IMG/VR virus record: IMGVR_UViG_2548876950_000005
Coordinates: 1-7,863 of that record
Reading direction: 5' to 3' (one strand)
DNA from: a virus
Taxonomy: Duplodnaviria; Heunggongvirae; Uroviricota; Caudoviricetes
DNA length: 7,863 bases
Shown: positions 862-3,614 of the stretch, piece after piece
How the letters are laid out: each line of letters starts with the position of its first letter
Position numbering within the stretch: the stretch's first letter is position 1
Notes under the pieces: generated by a model
What the model saw: only the letters and a program-made list of their open reading frames with translations
Told to the model about the DNA's origin: nothing
Database searches by the model: none
Program-made: the position numbers and the translations under genes

Positions 862-899
862 GGGGACGAATCATCCCCGACCTGATTGTTTAAAGAGCG
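862..899 (-). promoter_or_regulatory. nutR: boxA-like CGCTCTTTAAACA (899-887, minus) followed by boxB-like hairpin GGGGA-UGAUUCG-UCCCC (878-862, minus)
   Basis: boxA matches the CGCTCTT(T)A consensus. The 18-nt boxB segment is identical to the one at 3597-3614 on the opposite strand (nutL). Location between cro and cII. Confidence 0.6.
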
Positions 900-906
900 G
901 TGTTAC

Positions 907-1131
907 TTATGCTGCCTGATTCGGTTTTGGAAACAGGTGTGGCAAATCGGGGCGAATTTCATAAGCCTTGATCTGCCCTCCAGTGGCGTTAACGATGGCG
1001 GTAACTTTCTCTGGAGAGACCAACCCGCCTTTCAGCCATTTGTGTACTGCTGGCTGCGTTACACCACACTTGTCGGCAAGGCGCTTTTGGCTACCGACAA
1101 TTTTCAAGGCTCGTTGAATTACTAAATTCAT
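907..1131 (-). CDS. cro: Cro-like repressor (small HTH DNA-binding protein)
   Basis: Track ORF 907..1152 contains the HTH QKRLADKCGVTQPAVHKWLKGG. It is divergent from cI across the operator region. Start placed at ATG 1131 (MNLVIQ…), which has a GAGGT SD about 6 nt upstream; alternative starts at 1137 and 1152. Confidence 0.7.
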   Translation of the reverse strand: MNLVIQRALKIVGSQKRLADKCGVTQPAVHKWLKGGLVSPEKVTAIVNATGGQIKAYEIRPDLPHLFPKPNQAA

Positions 1132-1164
1132 GAGCATACCTCTTGTGGTCATTACTTATAACCA

Positions 1165-1193
1165 AAGATAACTCAAGTTATAAAAAATAGCAA
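1165..1193 (-). promoter_or_regulatory. Candidate pR: -35 TTGCTA (1193-1188), 17-bp spacer, -10 TATCTT (1170-1165), reading into cro
   Basis: Read on the reverse complement. The -10 overlaps operator site OR1. The same -10 hexamer in the same operator context recurs at pL. Confidence 0.4.
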
Positions 1194-1230
1194 TAACCTT
1201 TGTTATTTTACTTTGGATAACCGTAGTTAT
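1168..1230. promoter_or_regulatory. OR operator region: three 14-bp palindromes ATAAC-N4-GTTAT at 1168-1181, 1193-1206 and 1217-1230 (centre spacing about 24-25 bp)
   Basis: Read directly: ataacTCAAgttat, ataacCTTTgttat, ataacCGTAgttat, between the divergent cro and cI starts. pRM is expected to overlap the cI-proximal site. Confidence 0.65.
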
Positions 1231-1242
1231 AGATTTGTGGGT

Positions 1243-1950
1243 ATGAAAACATTCGCAGAAAGACTAAATGCAGCCATGAGCTCAGCAGGTGTGTCGCAAT
1301 CACAGCTTGCTGACATGGTTGGAATATCTCAGCCAGCCATACAGAAGATGTCATCCGGTAAAACAAACGGATCTCGCAAGATGGTTGAATTAGCCAATGC
1401 TTTAAAAGTACGCCCTGAATGGCTTAGCTCTGGTATTGGTGAAATGAGGGATGGTACACATGAAGAACCATCCAATGTCCGTGAATCATCTTTAAAAGCT
1501 GTGGTATGGGAAGATATTAAAAGAAACGATGACGAGTTTGTCGCGTTGCCTCTTCTTAACGTTTCGCTTTCAGCTGGAAGCGGTAGCTGCGAGCTAGAGG
1601 AATCATCAGAGTTCTCTTTGGTTTTCAGAAAGTACTATCTGAAAAAGATGGGGGTATCTGAAAGATCAGCCAAGCTAGTTAGGGTTGTAGGGCAAAGCAT
1701 GGAACCAACGCTTCACGACGGAGATGTTGTTGGCGTTAACACACAAGATACCACAATCAGAGATGGTAAAACCTACGCTATTTGCCAGTCTGATTTGTTA
1801 CGAGTAAAAACATTAATCGCCACCCCAACATCGGTGATAATCAGATCAATAAATCGCGAAGAGTACCCAGATGAAGTAATGGATAGAGATGAATTTAATG
1901 AAACCGTAAGGATTATTGGCAGAGTATTCTGGTCGTCTCATAGTTGGTAA
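1243..1950 (+). CDS. cI: CI-like prophage repressor (N-terminal XRE-type HTH, C-terminal S24/LexA-like autopeptidase domain)
   Basis: HTH QSQLADMVGISQPAIQKMSSG; Ala-Gly in SLSAGSGS; catalytic-serine context GQSMEPT; downstream Lys (LLRVKTL). ATG 1243 preferred over the track TTG 1213 because the operator at 1217-1230 would otherwise fall in the coding sequence. Confidence 0.85.
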   Translation: MKTFAERLNAAMSSAGVSQSQLADMVGISQPAIQKMSSGKTNGSRKMVELANALKVRPEWLSSGIGEMRDGTHEEPSNVRESSLKAVVWEDIKRNDDEFVALPLLNVSLSAGSGSCELEESSEFSLVFRKYYLKKMGVSERSAKLVRVVGQSMEPTLHDGDVVGVNTQDTTIRDGKTYAICQSDLLRVKTLIATPTSVIIRSINREEYPDEVMDRDEFNETVRIIGRVFWSSHSW

Positions 1951-1987
1951 CCAGTGGCCTGAAGAGACGTTTGGGTGAGGAGGATAG

Positions 1988-2329
1988 ATGGCGTTCACTG
2001 ACCTTGAATATCAAGCGGTCAAAAAAGAAGTTCACCAATTCATTGAAAGCATAAGGCCGCCTGAACATATCCGCAATGAACTGGATATTGTTTATAGCAT
2101 CAATGACCAAACGATAGATATCGGCGAACAGCGCCCCGTGTGGCAGGGCAATCCAGGTGAAACAAACATCCTGCCATCAGCAAGAATCAAGTACATACGT
2201 TCTCTGGATAGATGGAAAATCTATTGGATGCGGAAGGATATGAAATGGCATCAGTACAGTACTGAACTTTCGCTGACTGATGCGCTTGAAGTTGTTAGGG
2301 CTGACCCAGCCTGCTGTTTCTTTAGGTAA
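1988..2329 (+). CDS. Hypothetical protein, 113 aa, directly downstream of cI (rexA-position cargo); possibly a small conserved DUF-family protein
   Basis: Strong SD GGAGG 5 nt upstream of ATG, 37 nt after the cI stop. C-terminal motif RWKIYWMRKDMKWHQY…ACCFF resembles, from memory, a small bacterial DUF family (possibly DUF3024); unverified. Confidence 0.6.
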   Translation: MAFTDLEYQAVKKEVHQFIESIRPPEHIRNELDIVYSINDQTIDIGEQRPVWQGNPGETNILPSARIKYIRSLDRWKIYWMRKDMKWHQYSTELSLTDALEVVRADPACCFFR

Positions 2330-2351
2330 GAGAAATAGATTTAGGAGATGA

Positions 2352-2380
2352 AAGGTCGCAGAGGTGCGGCCTTTTTTATT
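2352..2380 (+). terminator. Rho-independent terminator after the cI-orf113 unit
   Basis: Stem AAGGTCGC/GCGGCCTT (one G·T wobble), loop AGAGGT, then TTTTTTATT. Confidence 0.6.
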
Positions 2381-2389
2381 GAGAGTGGA

Positions 2390-2448
2390 TCTTGAACGGA
2401 AATTCTCAAGACTTGAGTCTTGCATGCAAATCAATTCCTGGATAAACT
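2390..2448 (+). promoter_or_regulatory. Inverted-repeat cluster and candidate promoter upstream of orf173: IR TCTTGA-N10-TCAAGA (2390-2411), IR CAAGAC-N4-GTCTTG (2407-2422), TGCATGCA palindrome (2421-2428); candidate -35 TTGCAT (2420-2425) and -10 TAAACT (2443-2448)
   Basis: Read directly. Lies in the 150-bp gap between the terminator and the next ATG. Confidence 0.3.
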
Positions 2449-2480
2449 CGATCTGAGTCAATAACTTAGAGAGAGAGCAA

Positions 2481-3002
2481 ATGGCAAAGTCAAACGTTAG
2501 CGTGCAGGCATTCAAGGACTTCCTTGAAGAGCTTATGTCGCTGAACATAATGAAGGAGGCCACCGCTCGAAATTTAAAAAACTCATCCGCTCGCCTCTTA
2601 ACGGTAGTCCAAGAAGAGGAAATGGGTGATGTTACTCAGCTTGATGTGAATGAGCTTGCCGAGCGATACATCAACGCAACTGAGCCGAAGCCTAGCGACA
2701 GCAGCATTACTGCATATAAAAGCCGCATGGAAAGTGCAATCAAAAAGTTTGTAGCTTTCCAGTCTGGTGAAGAAATCCCATACACTCCGATTGACAAAGA
2801 ATCCAGTGAGGAAAAAGATTTGGCTGGCGAACCAACAAAAGTCGAAGGCAAGGCTAATGCACTTCATACCTATGATCTTCCAGTAGTTCTTCGACCTGAA
2901 TCAGGGGTTACAGTAACGATTAAAGGCATTCCTAACGATATCACAAACGAAGAAGCCGAACGCATCTCTTCAATTCTGAAGGTTTACGTTCGGCCTCAAT
3001 AA
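2481..3002 (+). CDS. Hypothetical acidic protein, 173 aa (rexB-position cargo)
   Basis: Long ORF on the same strand as cI, between cI and OL/pL. Purine-rich GAGAGAGAG upstream of ATG. No family recognised. Confidence 0.55.
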   Translation: MAKSNVSVQAFKDFLEELMSLNIMKEATARNLKNSSARLLTVVQEEEMGDVTQLDVNELAERYINATEPKPSDSSITAYKSRMESAIKKFVAFQSGEEIPYTPIDKESSEEKDLAGEPTKVEGKANALHTYDLPVVLRPESGVTVTIKGIPNDITNEEAERISSILKVYVRPQ

Positions 3003-3305
3003 TGCAAAAGCATTCAGCACAATGTCCAACTCCCCAGTCCGACATTGATGCTGTTTAACCAGAGCCTCCAAAAGGAGCCCTTGTTAAGGTACACAATATT
3101 TGCGATGTAACCTTAGCGCGTCTGGTACATTTTTTCAAGCGGTTGTAGGGCTGCCGCCAATATGAGAAAACACAGATGTCTACATACAATTTGAATGACC
3201 AATTCGATCGAGAAGTTCATGTGAATGCCTATGAACGGATAAGGCATGGAAATCTTGAACATGTGTGTGAGCATTATCGCTCAAGGCCACACCGCTAATC
3301 ATCAA

Positions 3306-3332
3306 CCCGGCCACCGAGCCGGGTTTTCTTTG
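3306..3332 (+). terminator. Rho-independent terminator upstream of OL/pL
   Basis: Stem CCCGGC/GCCGGG (3306-3311 / 3318-3323), loop CACCGA, then TTTTCTTTG. Confidence 0.5.
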
Positions 3333-3467
3333 CCTCACGTTCGCCCTCCCATATTTAATAGCCGCAAATGTGGTAAACCGCGAACCAACTCACCAGCAAT
3401 ACCCCCTCCAACTACAGACCAATCTGCAACATTTACAAAAATAAAATACCTTTGCTATCCATCACTT

Positions 3468-3527
3468 ATAACTTATTTACCACAAAATATAAACTAAGTT
3501 ATTGACCACACCCATAACCTAAGTTAT
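3468..3527. promoter_or_regulatory. OL operator region: ATAAC-N4-GTTAT-type sites at 3514-3527 (perfect), 3489-3502 (one mismatch) and a degenerate site near 3468-3481
   Basis: Same 14-bp palindrome family as the OR sites; spacing between the two good sites is 25 bp. Confidence 0.55.
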
Positions 3528-3530
3528 CTT
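3502..3530 (+). promoter_or_regulatory. Candidate pL: -35 TTGACC (3502-3507), 17-bp spacer, -10 TATCTT (3525-3530)
   Basis: The -10 overlaps the promoter-proximal OL site; oriented towards nutL and the N-like ORF. Confidence 0.5.
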
Positions 3531-3576
3531 TAAGCCATCAGCAGGACGCAGGAAGCCAAACGGAACAGATTGGCAG

Positions 3577-3614
3577 GCTCTTTAACATTGATGGAATGGG
3601 GATGATTCGTCCCC
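3577..3614 (+). promoter_or_regulatory. nutL: boxA-like GCTCTTTAACA (3577-3587) and boxB-like hairpin GGGGA-TGATTCG-TCCCC (3598-3614)
   Basis: boxA consensus match; boxB identical to the nutR copy on the opposite strand; lies between pL and the N-like ORF. Confidence 0.6.

What the first reader, a model, noticed from the sequence alone, without database searches (positions are those of the whole stretch)
862..3614. Identical boxB hairpins in nutR and nutL with a 7-nt loop, paired with an unusually short N-like protein
The 18-mer GGGGATGATTCGTCCCCA occurs on the minus strand at 861-878 and the plus strand at 3597-3614, each preceded by a boxA-like CGCTCTTTAA(A)CA in the transcript direction. 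The predicted boxB has a 5-bp stem and a 7-nt loop (UGAUUCG), unlike the 5-nt GAAAA loop of lambda. The first ORF after nutL is only 68 aa (lambda N is 107 aa) with an Arg/Lys-rich N-terminus. This may be a distinct N/boxB specificity class, or the antiterminator may be mis-called.
Basis: partly seen in the sequence, partly recalled or inferred. Interest (0 to 1): 0.5.

Follow-up and report, generated by a model that had tools for sequence, protein, structure and literature searches.

The report
Prophage N antiterminator with new boxB
This is an ordinary lambda-type early antitermination system (nutL, nutR and a small N protein) in an E. coli prophage, but its RNA hairpin and matching N-terminal peptide form a specificity pair that has not been characterised, and its 68-residue N is the shortest complete one found.

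Summary
Each copy lies 8-10 nt after a boxA, downstream of pR and pL.

The 68-aa ORF (3770-3976, GTG start) is a true N protein. It hits Pfam N_peptide at E=2.7e-16, and its leader, ribosome-binding site and C-terminus are homologous to HK620 N.

The "distinct specificity class" reading is supported by comparison:
- Every viral contig carrying this boxB in the nutL position is followed by an N beginning MKAREIRKLERAR or a close variant.
- Among 80 loci chosen by the N body, 27 of 27 with this arginine-rich motif (ARM) carry the boxB, and 0 of 53 with other ARMs do.
- The same N body carries at least five other ARM/boxB pairs, so specificity cassettes are swapped.

"Mis-called antiterminator" is rejected.

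Two corrections:
- The hairpin most likely has 6-7 pairs with a 5- or 3-nt loop, not a 7-nt loop.
- Complete N proteins of 73-86 aa are common, so 68 aa is the low end of a continuum.

No sequenced phage isolate or paper searched contains this pair. RefSeq annotates the gene only as a 30-codon pseudogene fragment. Nothing has been tested experimentally. Interest is modest: a new variant of a well-known kind.

The parts
3598..3614 (+). nutL boxB hairpin, GGGGAUGAUUCGUCCCC
   Evidence: Exact repeat. Stable hairpin at -9.7 kcal/mol. The same 17-mer follows a boxA in all 42 IMG/VR loci that contain it except two contigs where a hairpin replaces boxA.
3577..3587 (+). nutL boxA, GCUCUUUAACA, followed by a 10-nt spacer (3588-3597)
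   Evidence: Read from the sequence. boxA and spacer match phage HK620's annotated nutL except for one spacer base.
862..878 (-). nutR boxB hairpin, identical to the nutL copy
   Evidence: It lies between cro and cII, as in lambda.
887..899 (-). nutR boxA, CGCUCUUUAAACA, followed by an 8-nt spacer (879-886)
   Evidence: It starts 7 nt after the cro stop codon.
3770..3976 (+). N gene, 68 aa, GTG start. ARM is about residues 2-17 (KAREIRKLERARKHKE). A middle ...VVSLAG... motif follows. The C-terminus is CLPNVALYAAGYRKSKQLTAR.
   Evidence: Pfam N_peptide E=2.7e-16 and PHROG 271. GGAGG at 3759-3763. Other 68-aa alleles have ATG at this codon. Aligned with P22-like, HK620-like and phi21-like N proteins.
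3626..3754 (+). N-leader long-range helix: UUGGCUUUGGGAUUUGAUG (3626-3645) pairs with CAUCAAAUCACCAAAGUCAA (3733-3754), just 5' of the N ribosome-binding site
   Evidence: Fold of 3545-3790 gives -87.7 kcal/mol, z=-4.98. lambda and HK620 have the same helix with a conserved proximal part and compensatory distal part, by my reading of the sequences.
3489..3530 (+). OL operators (3489-3502, 3514-3527) and pL (-35 at 3502-3507, -10 at 3525-3530)
1165..1230 (.). OR operators (1168-1181, 1193-1206, 1217-1230) and pR on the - strand (-35 TTGCTA 1193->1188, -10 TATCTT 1170->1165)
   Evidence: Operators: 5 matches against 0.25 expected by chance. pR was read by eye and scores 8 of 12, below the scanner's threshold.
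907..1131 (-). cro-like gene (YdaS/P22_Cro type); nutR follows it
   Evidence: Pfam and PHROG hits. RefSeq places the start at the second ATG.
1243..1950 (+). cI-type repressor (HTH + S24 peptidase)
510..809 (-). cII, the first gene after nutR
   Evidence: Pfam Phage_CII E=4e-34.
837..854 (-). Conserved hairpin ACGCAUCAACAGAUGCGU, 6 nt after the nutR boxB; a candidate tR1-region element
   Evidence: Present after most nutR sites of this class listed. The plus strand reads as a terminator-like site.
4800..4825 (+). Terminator-like hairpin plus U-run between N and cIII; a candidate tL1 that N would have to read through

Best explanation
The region is the early antitermination system of a lambdoid E. 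coli prophage. It works like lambda N/nut but uses its own RNA-peptide recognition pair.

**Proposed mechanism**
1. Transcripts from pL (+ strand) and pR (- strand) each carry a nut site. The site is a boxA matching the strong rrn-type consensus, a short spacer, and the boxB hairpin GGGGAUGAUUCGUCCCC.
2. The first pL gene encodes a 68-aa N.
3. Its N-terminal basic helix (MKAREIRKLERARKHKE) binds this boxB specifically.
4. The middle (...VVSLAG...) and the C-terminus (CLPNVALYAAGYRKSKQLTAR) are shared with P22- and HK620-type N proteins. They would tether the complex, with NusA/B/E/G, to RNA polymerase.
5. Polymerase then reads through terminators downstream of N and of cII.

**The compact N.** The 68-aa protein has no N-terminal extension before the ARM. 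It also lacks 12 residues that the 80-aa relatives have between the ARM and the SLAG motif.

**Shown here:** anatomy, homology, conservation, and the strict ARM/boxB association.

**Inferred, not shown:** binding, Nus dependence and antitermination.
For: **Family and position**
- Pfam N_peptide and PHROG N-like hits.
- Gene order is that of the lambda immunity region: cII, nutR, cro, OR, cI, morons, OL/pL, nutL, N, cIII.

**Mosaic with HK620**
- The window matches HK620 from pL through boxA and spacer with only two substitutions.
- It matches again in the leader helix, the ribosome-binding site and the last 25 codons of N.
- Only boxB and the ARM-coding part are replaced.

**Forward test**
- All 42 IMG/VR loci with the exact 17-mer place it in a nut context. 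Two contigs lack a boxA match.
- Every nutL copy in the loci held at that point is followed, 97-393 nt later, by an ORF with this N-terminus: 49 genes, 34 distinct proteins.
- The core K2 A3 R4 E5 .. K8 .. R11 A12 .. H/Y15 is nearly invariant despite many synonymous and some amino-acid changes. One protein has S3.
- C-terminal modules are of two unrelated types, P22/HK620-like and lambda-like.

**Reciprocal test**
- Of 80 loci chosen by N-body similarity, 27 of 27 with this ARM have the boxB and 0 of 53 with other ARMs do.
- Fisher p=6.5e-22; the loci are not phylogenetically independent.
- Other ARMs on the same body have their own boxB. Examples are P22 GCGCUGACAAAGCGC and HK620 UCCCGCCGAAAUGCGGGA.

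**Both nut sites**
- 44 loci carry both sites of this class around about 25 different immunity segments.

**RNA-level signal**
- nutR variants change pair 1-17 from G-C to A-U, with a G.U intermediate.
- Only position 8 of the apex varies (A/U/G).
- Orientation relative to boxA and transcription is always the same.

**ORF integrity**
- The 68 codons are kept in alleles at 88-99% identity.
- Against P0002 there are 9 synonymous and 5 non-synonymous codon differences.
- The first 28 residues are the same in all but one allele, which has E5G.
Against: - No experiment exists.
- The pair was found only in prophages and uncultivated viral contigs. It is in none of 50,697 phage isolate records.
- RefSeq marks the gene as a partial pseudogene.
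- The exact-match E. coli prophage carries an IS1203 a few hundred bases downstream, so some carriers are decaying.
- The ARM is lysine-rich, with only four arginines in the first 17 residues.
- The 12-residue deletion lies just upstream of the motif I take to be the NusA contact.
- The boxB apex cannot be resolved: no covariation bears on pairs 6-12 and 7-11.
- The ARM/boxB association partly reflects physical linkage and shared descent.
Confidence: 0.85

Rival explanations
1. The 68-aa gene is a decayed, non-functional remnant of an 80-aa N in cryptic prophages. The nut sites are relics.
For: - It has a 12-residue internal gap relative to the 80-aa relatives.
- It uses a GTG start.
- PGAP calls it a pseudogene.
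- An IS1203 lies nearby in one carrier.
- It is absent from phage isolates.
Against: - The frame and the 68-codon length are kept in all alleles seen, down to 88% identity, in prophages with different replication and recombination modules.
- Synonymous codon differences outnumber non-synonymous ones, 9 to 5.
- Two alleles have ATG at the same codon.
- Both boxB copies remain identical to each other.
- ARM, SLAG motif and C-terminus are all retained.
- Lambda N lacking residues 81-107 still antiterminates at a single terminator (PMC3526286).
Confidence: 0.08
2. The protein is a Nun-like exclusion factor. It binds boxB RNA and arrests transcription of a competing phage rather than antiterminating its own.
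For: - It is a small ARM protein in the N position, as is HK022 Nun (PMC4124055, PMC5386594).
- Its size is unusual.
Against: - The phage's own two early operons carry the cognate boxB behind boxA. By background knowledge, HK022 uses put sites rather than N-type nut sites.
- The C-terminal 25 residues are homologous to those of P22 gp24 and HK620 N. P22 gp24 is an established antiterminator; HK620 N is annotated as one.
- They do not resemble Nun's Trp-containing C-terminus (background knowledge).
Confidence: 0.04
3. The 18-mers act at the DNA level, as a palindromic protein-binding site, or are plain terminators.
For: - The sequence is a near-palindrome flanking the immunity region.
Against: - The asymmetric centre always has the same orientation relative to boxA and to the direction of transcription at all 82 boxA-linked sites of this class.
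- The G.U intermediate at pair 1-17 makes sense only in RNA.
- No U-run follows the hairpin.
- A boxA 8-10 nt upstream is the nut signature.
Confidence: 0.02

Closest known systems
Coliphage HK620 N / nutL / nutR (annotated as similar to H-19B and phage 21 N)
   Same: - Nearly identical pL-to-boxA leader and spacer.
- Same leader helix, ribosome-binding site and position of the N start.
- Same last 25 residues of N, and the next gene starts right after the N stop.
   Different: - boxB is UCCCGCCGAAAUGCGGGA (6 bp, 6-nt loop) against GGGGAUGAUUCGUCCCC here.
- The ARM is NARNRRRARRQAQ after a 12-residue extension, against KAREIRKLERARK starting at residue 2 here.
- HK620 N is 90 aa; this one is 68 aa.
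Phage lambda N / boxB
   Same: - Overall layout: boxA, spacer, boxB.
- N is the first gene after pL.
- The ARM starts at residue 2-3.
- An N-leader long-range helix is present.
- Some members of this ARM class carry a lambda-like C-terminus (...NR.YY...KPLI).
   Different: - The lambda boxB is 5 bp with a GAAAA or GAAGA pentaloop. By background knowledge that loop folds like a GNRA tetraloop.
- Here the apex is G(A/U/G)UUC, whose end bases can form a G-C pair, so a GNRA-like fold is not expected.
- Lambda boxA is the weaker CGCUCUUA.
- Lambda N is 107 aa in the literature.
Salmonella phage P22 gp24 / boxB
   Same: - Same N family and same C-terminal module.
- boxA is CGCUCUUUAAC.
- The ARM aligns: RRHERRRK against RKLERARK.
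   Different: - boxB is GCGCUGACAAAGCGC.
- The P22-type ARM never co-occurs with this boxB.
- P22 gp24 is about 100 aa, with an N-terminal extension and a longer middle.
Phage 21 N peptide / boxB (PDB 1NYB) and the related MNAKQRY...RAAEHRE group
   Same: - The ARM pattern is shared: A-[KR]-x-x-x-x-x-x-R-A-x-x-H-[KR]-E.
- The MNAKQRY group's boxB apex, G(A/U)UGC, resembles G(A/U/G)UUC here.
   Different: - Stems differ, as does the fourth loop base.
- The phi21-like ARM in these data pairs with UUCCUCUCUAGCAGGAGGAA.
- The PDB match is weak (E=0.71), and the query profile contains a phi21-like sequence.

Membership tests
Lambdoid N / nut processive antitermination system | N-family protein encoded as the first gene of the pL operon | tested here: met
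   Pfam PF25694 at 60.3 bits against a cut-off of 27.9, and PHROG 271. The gene lies 155 nt after nutL, with lambda-like gene order.
Lambdoid N / nut processive antitermination system | N-terminal basic (arginine-rich) RNA-binding motif | tested here: met
   Residues 2-17 align with the ARMs of P22-like, HK620-like and phi21-like N proteins. The motif is conserved in 34 distinct proteins. It is richer in lysine than the classical ARMs.
Lambdoid N / nut processive antitermination system | nut sites (boxA, spacer, boxB hairpin) in both early transcripts | tested here: met
Lambdoid N / nut processive antitermination system | Cognate pairing of ARM type with boxB type | tested here: met
   27 of 27 against 0 of 53 in protein-selected loci. 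49 of 49 in boxB-selected loci. This is comparative evidence only.
Lambdoid N / nut processive antitermination system | C-terminal RNA-polymerase-binding region and central NusA-binding region | tested here: inconclusive
   The C-terminal 25 residues are homologous to P22/HK620 N. The central ...VVSLAG... resembles KAISLAG of relatives and, by eye, lambda's ILSL. No binding data exist, and 12 residues are missing just upstream.
Lambdoid N / nut processive antitermination system | Nus-factor-dependent read-through of downstream terminators | not testable with these tools
   Terminator-like sites exist downstream, at 4800-4825 and 4837-4856 (+). Function needs a reporter or in vitro transcription.
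Lambda/P22-type boxB (GNRA-like pentaloop) | 5-bp stem closed by U-A, with a pentaloop G-N-(N)-A-A ending in A | tested here: not met
   The apex is G(A/U/G)UUC closed by U.G. Its ends can form G-C. The minimum-energy fold is 7 bp plus a triloop.
HK022 Nun-type exclusion factor | No cognate nut sites in its own genome, and a Nun-type C-terminus | tested here: not met
   The phage's own nutL and nutR carry the cognate boxB. The C-terminus is of the P22/HK620 N type. Nun's features are recalled from the literature (PMC4124055, PMC5386594).

The most novel reading that the evidence does not exclude
The MKAREIRKLERAR peptide and the GGGAUGNUUCGUCCC hairpin are a further, structurally distinct N-boxB recognition mode, alongside those solved for lambda, P22 and phi21.
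- A Lys/Arg helix with a conserved His/Tyr-15 would read a 6-7 bp stem capped by a non-GNRA tri- or pentaloop.
- The pair would be orthogonal to the lambda, P22 and phi21 pairs.
- The 68-aa protein would be the minimal natural N: ARM, about 20 linker residues and a 25-residue polymerase anchor would suffice for processive antitermination.
Probability: 0.45. Interest if true: 0.45.

Novelty: new variant of a known kind. Interest (0 to 1): 0.3.

Why it matters
**Biology.** It adds one more documented case of coordinated swapping at three places (nutL boxB, nutR boxB and the ARM codons) on an otherwise shared N scaffold. In a sample of 80 loci it sits among at least six such classes. N specificity therefore diversifies by cassette exchange, much as immunity does.

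**Practical uses.**
- It offers a candidate orthogonal peptide-RNA tethering pair, beyond lambda N and P22 N.
- It offers a naturally minimal N for structural work on the antitermination complex.

**Annotation.** RefSeq marks the gene as a pseudogene fragment, and NCBIfam has no model for N proteins of this family.

**Limits.** It does not change the picture of how lambdoid early antitermination works.

Tried and rejected
**Searches that found nothing**
- A 62-nt nutL of this class (the Enterobacter-type variant) against 50,697 phage records, blastn at E<=1: no match.
- tblastn with the 80-aa relative: hits begin at residue 17 or 26, apart from one 42%-identical phage that has a different ARM and boxB.
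- tblastn with the first 35 residues: only a chance hit at E=9.
- Plasmid collection: no match.
- Literature search for the boxB and ARM strings: no papers. Three keyword searches found no survey covering this class.
- One paper that might list natural boxB types (PMC2446750) is not held.
- Rfam: no family for the nut region. It found only the cIII thermoregulator.
- NCBIfam: no N model at all.
- The boxA consensus could not be confirmed in PMC3177189. That comparison rests on background knowledge.

**Limited results**
- The one-genome-per-species scan found the nut pair only in Candidatus Erwinia dacicola. The host range therefore comes from protein names (Enterobacter roggenkampii, E. bugandensis, E. 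coli).

**Ideas rejected**
- A longer N from an upstream start: an in-frame stop lies at 3731-3733, and no start codon lies between it and the GTG.
- A frameshifted fusion with the 3898-4431 ORF: that gene has its own ribosome-binding site and an ATG at 3979, right after the N stop, as in HK620.
- A cUUCGg-type tetraloop: the closing pair would be A-U in nutL and U.U in the nutR variants, so it is not conserved.

**Not attempted**
- Structure prediction, because N is intrinsically disordered on its own.

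
Full report
**1. What is in the window**

The window is the immunity and early-regulation region of a lambdoid prophage, drawn in the opposite orientation to the usual lambda map.

| Feature | Coordinates and strand | Evidence |
|---|---|---|
| Start of an O-type replication gene with iterons | left end, - |; HTH-domain gene in RefSeq |
| cII | 510-809, - | Pfam Phage_CII 4e-34 |
| nutR | 862-899, - | |
| cro-like gene | 907-1131, - | |
| Three ATAAC-N4-GTTAT operators (OR) | 1168-1230 | |
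| cI-type repressor | 1243-1950, + | |
| Two moron-like genes | 1988-2329 and 2481-3002, + | |
| Terminator-like site | 3304-3325, + | |
| Two more operators (OL) and a pL-like promoter | 3489-3530, + | |
| nutL | 3577-3614, + | |
| 68-aa ORF | 3770-3976, + | |
| cIII with its Rfam thermoregulator | 4872-4930, + | 88.5 bits |
| kil; Sak4-like ATPase and SSB genes | further right, + | |

The operator pattern gives 5 matches against 0.25 expected by chance.

The nutL-N segment (421 bp) is 100% identical to a prophage of E. coli Z1323CEC0019. It is 97% identical in nine further complete E. coli genomes, so 10 of 5,426 genomes carry it.

**2. The observation**

- The 18-mer occurs exactly twice, in inverted orientation. 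No shuffle gave a match.
- Each copy follows a boxA. In nutR it is CGCUCUUUAAACA with an 8-nt spacer. In nutL it is GCUCUUUAACA with a 10-nt spacer.
- By background knowledge, this boxA matches the strong rrn-type consensus better than lambda's CGCUCUUA does (lambda sequence).

| Structure | Energy (kcal/mol) |
|---|---|
| 7 bp (U6.G12 and G7-C11 added) + AUU triloop | -9.7 (88% of the ensemble) |
| 6 bp + GAUUC pentaloop | -8.3 |
| 5 bp + 7-nt loop | -6.4 |

**3. The 68-aa ORF is N**

- It passes Pfam N_peptide at 60.3 bits against a cut-off of 27.9. Residues 12-68 match profile positions 44-100. It also hits PHROG 271.
- Comparison with phage HK620, whose pL, nutL and N are annotated, shows a clean mosaic:
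  - The window matches HK620 from the pL transcript start through boxA and the spacer, apart from two substitutions.
  - boxB differs.
  - The two are alike again in the hairpin after boxB, in the sequence CACCAAAGUCAAUCAUCGGAGGU before the start codon, and in the last 25 codons. The next gene begins right after the N stop in both.
- The GTG at 3770 therefore sits where the HK620 and lambda N start codons sit. Lambda reads GGAGAAUCCAGAUG.
- Two diverged 68-aa alleles, at 94% and 88% identity, have ATG at that very codon.
- No longer reading is possible. An in-frame stop lies at 3731-3733.

**4. Evidence for a cognate ARM/boxB pair**

*Starting from the RNA*
- The exact 17-mer occurs in 42 IMG/VR contigs. 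In 40 of them it lies 9-11 nt after a boxA (GCUCUUUAA or a one-base variant). In two contigs a hairpin replaces boxA.
- Every nutL copy in the loci held at that point is followed, 97-393 nt later, by an ORF with a related N-terminus. Most begin MKAREIRKLERAR(K/Q)HKE. Others begin MKARELRKRLRAEAHRE, MKAREIKKLRRAKEYR or MKAREVRKLARASEHRE. The set is 49 genes and 34 distinct proteins of 68-99 aa.
- The core K2, A3, R4, E5, K8, R11, A12 and H/Y15 is nearly invariant, although the coding DNA carries many synonymous changes. One protein has S3.
- Behind this ARM sit two unrelated C-terminal modules. One is the P22/HK620 type (CLP.VA..AG.RK..TAR). The other is the lambda type (..NR.YY....KPLI).

*Starting from the protein*
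- I took 80 loci retrieved by similarity to the 80-aa relative.
- All 27 with this ARM have the boxB. None of the 53 with other ARMs do.
- Fisher p is 6.5e-22. It overstates the case, because the loci are related and the ARM lies close to nutL.
- On nearly the same N body, other ARMs pair with other hairpins:

| ARM | boxB |
|---|---|
| NAKTRRHERRRK (P22 type) | GCGCUGACAAAGCGC |
| NARNRRRARRQ (HK620 type) | UCCCGCCGAAAUGCGGGA |
| NSKNRYRARRAAK (phi21-like) | UUCCUCUCUAGCAGGAGGAA |
| MNAKQRYNARRAAEH | CCUACCUGAUGCAGGUAGG |
| MNSRQRYKAKRAAEH | CCUCCCUGUUGCGGGGAGG |

*The distant site*
- 44 loci carry both a nutL and a nutR of this class around about 25 different immunity segments, 1.1-2.8 kb long.
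- The match between ARM and nutR is therefore kept across recombination.

*RNA-level variation*
- nutR variants are AGGGAUGUUUCGUCCCU (23 sites), GGGGAUGUUUCGUCCCU (3) and GGGGAUGGUUCGUCCCC (1).
- Pair 1-17 changes G-C to A-U through G.U.
- Position 8 is free (A/U/G).
- GGGAUG-N-UUCGUCCC never varies.
- This supports an RNA hairpin with a sequence-specific apex. It cannot decide between the triloop and pentaloop forms.

**5. How short is 68 aa?**

- A profile search of 1.84 billion representative proteins found 114 clusters of this N family.
- Complete members of 73-86 aa are common, and many begin MN(A/S)(K/R)QR....
- Members shorter than 68 aa match only the C-terminal part of the profile, so they look like fragments.
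- Two differences explain the length:
  - The ARM starts at residue 2, as in lambda. P22- and HK620-type N proteins have a 10-13-residue extension before it.
  - The E. coli allele lacks 12 residues (AFSRLSEGCSER) that the 80-aa Enterobacter-type relatives carry between the ARM and the conserved (K)A(I)SLAG motif.
- ARM, SLAG motif and C-terminus are all retained.
- Against the 94%-identical allele there are 9 synonymous and 5 non-synonymous codon differences. The first 28 residues are the same in all 68-aa alleles but one, which has E5G.
- Published deletions show that lambda N lacking residues 81-107 still antiterminates at a single terminator (PMC3526286). A compact N is therefore plausible.

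**6. Mechanism**

By homology with lambda and P22 (established knowledge; see also PMC8022706), I propose:
- N binds boxB on the nascent pL and pR transcripts through its N-terminal helix.
- NusB/NusE bind boxA.
- The middle and C-terminus of N engage NusA and RNA polymerase, making polymerase resistant to downstream terminators.

Candidate targets in the window:
- terminator-like sites at 4800-4825 and 4837-4856 (+), between N and cIII;
- the conserved hairpin just after nutR (837-854).

All of this is inference. Only the anatomy, the homology and the co-variation are shown.

**7. Rivals**

- *Decayed remnant (0.08).* This fits the pseudogene call, the internal gap and the nearby IS1203. It is contradicted by the conserved frame, the synonymous-biased changes and the retention of all modules.
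- *Nun-like exclusion factor (0.04).* This is contradicted by the cognate nut sites in the phage's own operons and by the N-type C-terminus.
- *DNA-level palindrome or terminator (0.02).* This is contradicted by the fixed orientation relative to boxA, the G.U intermediate and the missing U-run.

**8. Known or new?**

- The kind is textbook. That lambdoid phages carry many N specificities, and that new ones keep turning up, is already in the literature. One example is epsilon34, where a divergent N-terminus was read as a novel boxB specificity (PMC2629481).
- This particular pair was not found in any of 50,697 phage isolate genomes, in plasmids, or as a string in the paper library.
- RefSeq annotates only a 30-codon 'regulator, missing N-terminus' pseudogene. 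NCBIfam has no N model.
- The apex does not fit the GNRA-like pentaloop of lambda and P22. It is closest to the G(A/U)UGC apex used by the MNAKQRY group, whose ARM shares the pattern R11-A12-..-H15-[KR]16-E17.

**Verdict.** I rate it a new variant of a known kind, of modest interest. The loop size and the degree of 'unusual shortness' need correcting.

Noticed in passing
window 3626-3645 with 3733-3754: A long-range helix closes the N leader just 5' of the N ribosome-binding site. The fold of 3545-3790 has z=-4.98. Lambda (GGCUUUGGGGUGUGUG / CACACACCACCAAAGC) and HK620 (GGCUUUGGGGUGACG / CGUCACCGCCAAAG) have the same helix, with a conserved proximal part and compensatory distal part by my reading. 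It is probably the counterpart of the RNase III-sensitive hairpin of the lambda N leader.
   Followed up: partly
window 837-854 (- strand), 6 nt after the nutR boxB: The hairpin ACGCAUCAACAGAUGCGU is conserved after most nutR sites of this class, in E. coli and non-E. coli loci. On the plus strand it reads as hairpin plus T-run, so it looks like a terminator facing the other way. It may belong to a tR1 region or stop antisense transcription.
   Followed up: partly
IMG/VR loci L057-L136: Nearly the same N body (...KAYCKKIDRAFSRLSEGCSERV...CLPEVALFAAGHRKS..TAR) carries at least six different N-terminal ARMs, five of them with a boxB of their own that could be identified. Specificity is exchanged as a small cassette.
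   Followed up: partly
L047 2831-2870 and its nutR; L074; L090; window nut sites: Two different ARM classes use hairpins whose apex is G-(A/U)-U-(U/G)-C. In the two phages where both sites were read (Vibrio phage IKEMa6-1 and the Enterobacter-type loci of this class), nutL has A and nutR has U at the second apex position. No explanation for this repeated asymmetry.
   Followed up: no
L003 5328-5417 and L004 5328-5417 (= window 3887-3976): RefSeq/PGAP annotates only the last 30 codons of N, as 'regulator, incomplete, missing N-terminus'. NCBIfam has no model that hits N proteins of this family.
   Followed up: yes
window 1-55: About two and a half tandem copies of a 21-nt unit (GCTCCTGCCCCACCCCGGGCA) lie at the window edge. 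They sit inside the replication-initiator gene on the minus strand and look like origin iterons.
   Followed up: no
window 534-564 (+): A strong terminator-like hairpin plus T-run lies antisense to the 3' end of cII, in the position of the lambda OOP RNA terminator. Rfam reported nothing there.
   Followed up: no
window 1988-3002 and 3304-3325 (+): Two genes of unknown function (DUF3024, and a 173-aa PHROG 2602 protein) sit between cI and OL, where lambda has rexAB. A terminator-like site follows them. They look like prophage-expressed morons.
   Followed up: no
window 4334-4588 (-) against 3979-4431 (+): An 84-aa convergent ORF overlaps the 3' end of the gene after N by about 100 nt. Neither has an informative family hit.
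   Followed up: no
window 4872-4930 (+): The lambda cIII thermoregulator RNA element is present (Rfam RF01804, 88.5 bits) at the start of cIII.
   Followed up: yes
L003 6058-7271: In the E. coli genome with the 100% match to nutL-N, an IS1203 is inserted downstream of N, before cIII. The window itself has no such insertion, so it comes from a different carrier.
   Followed up: no
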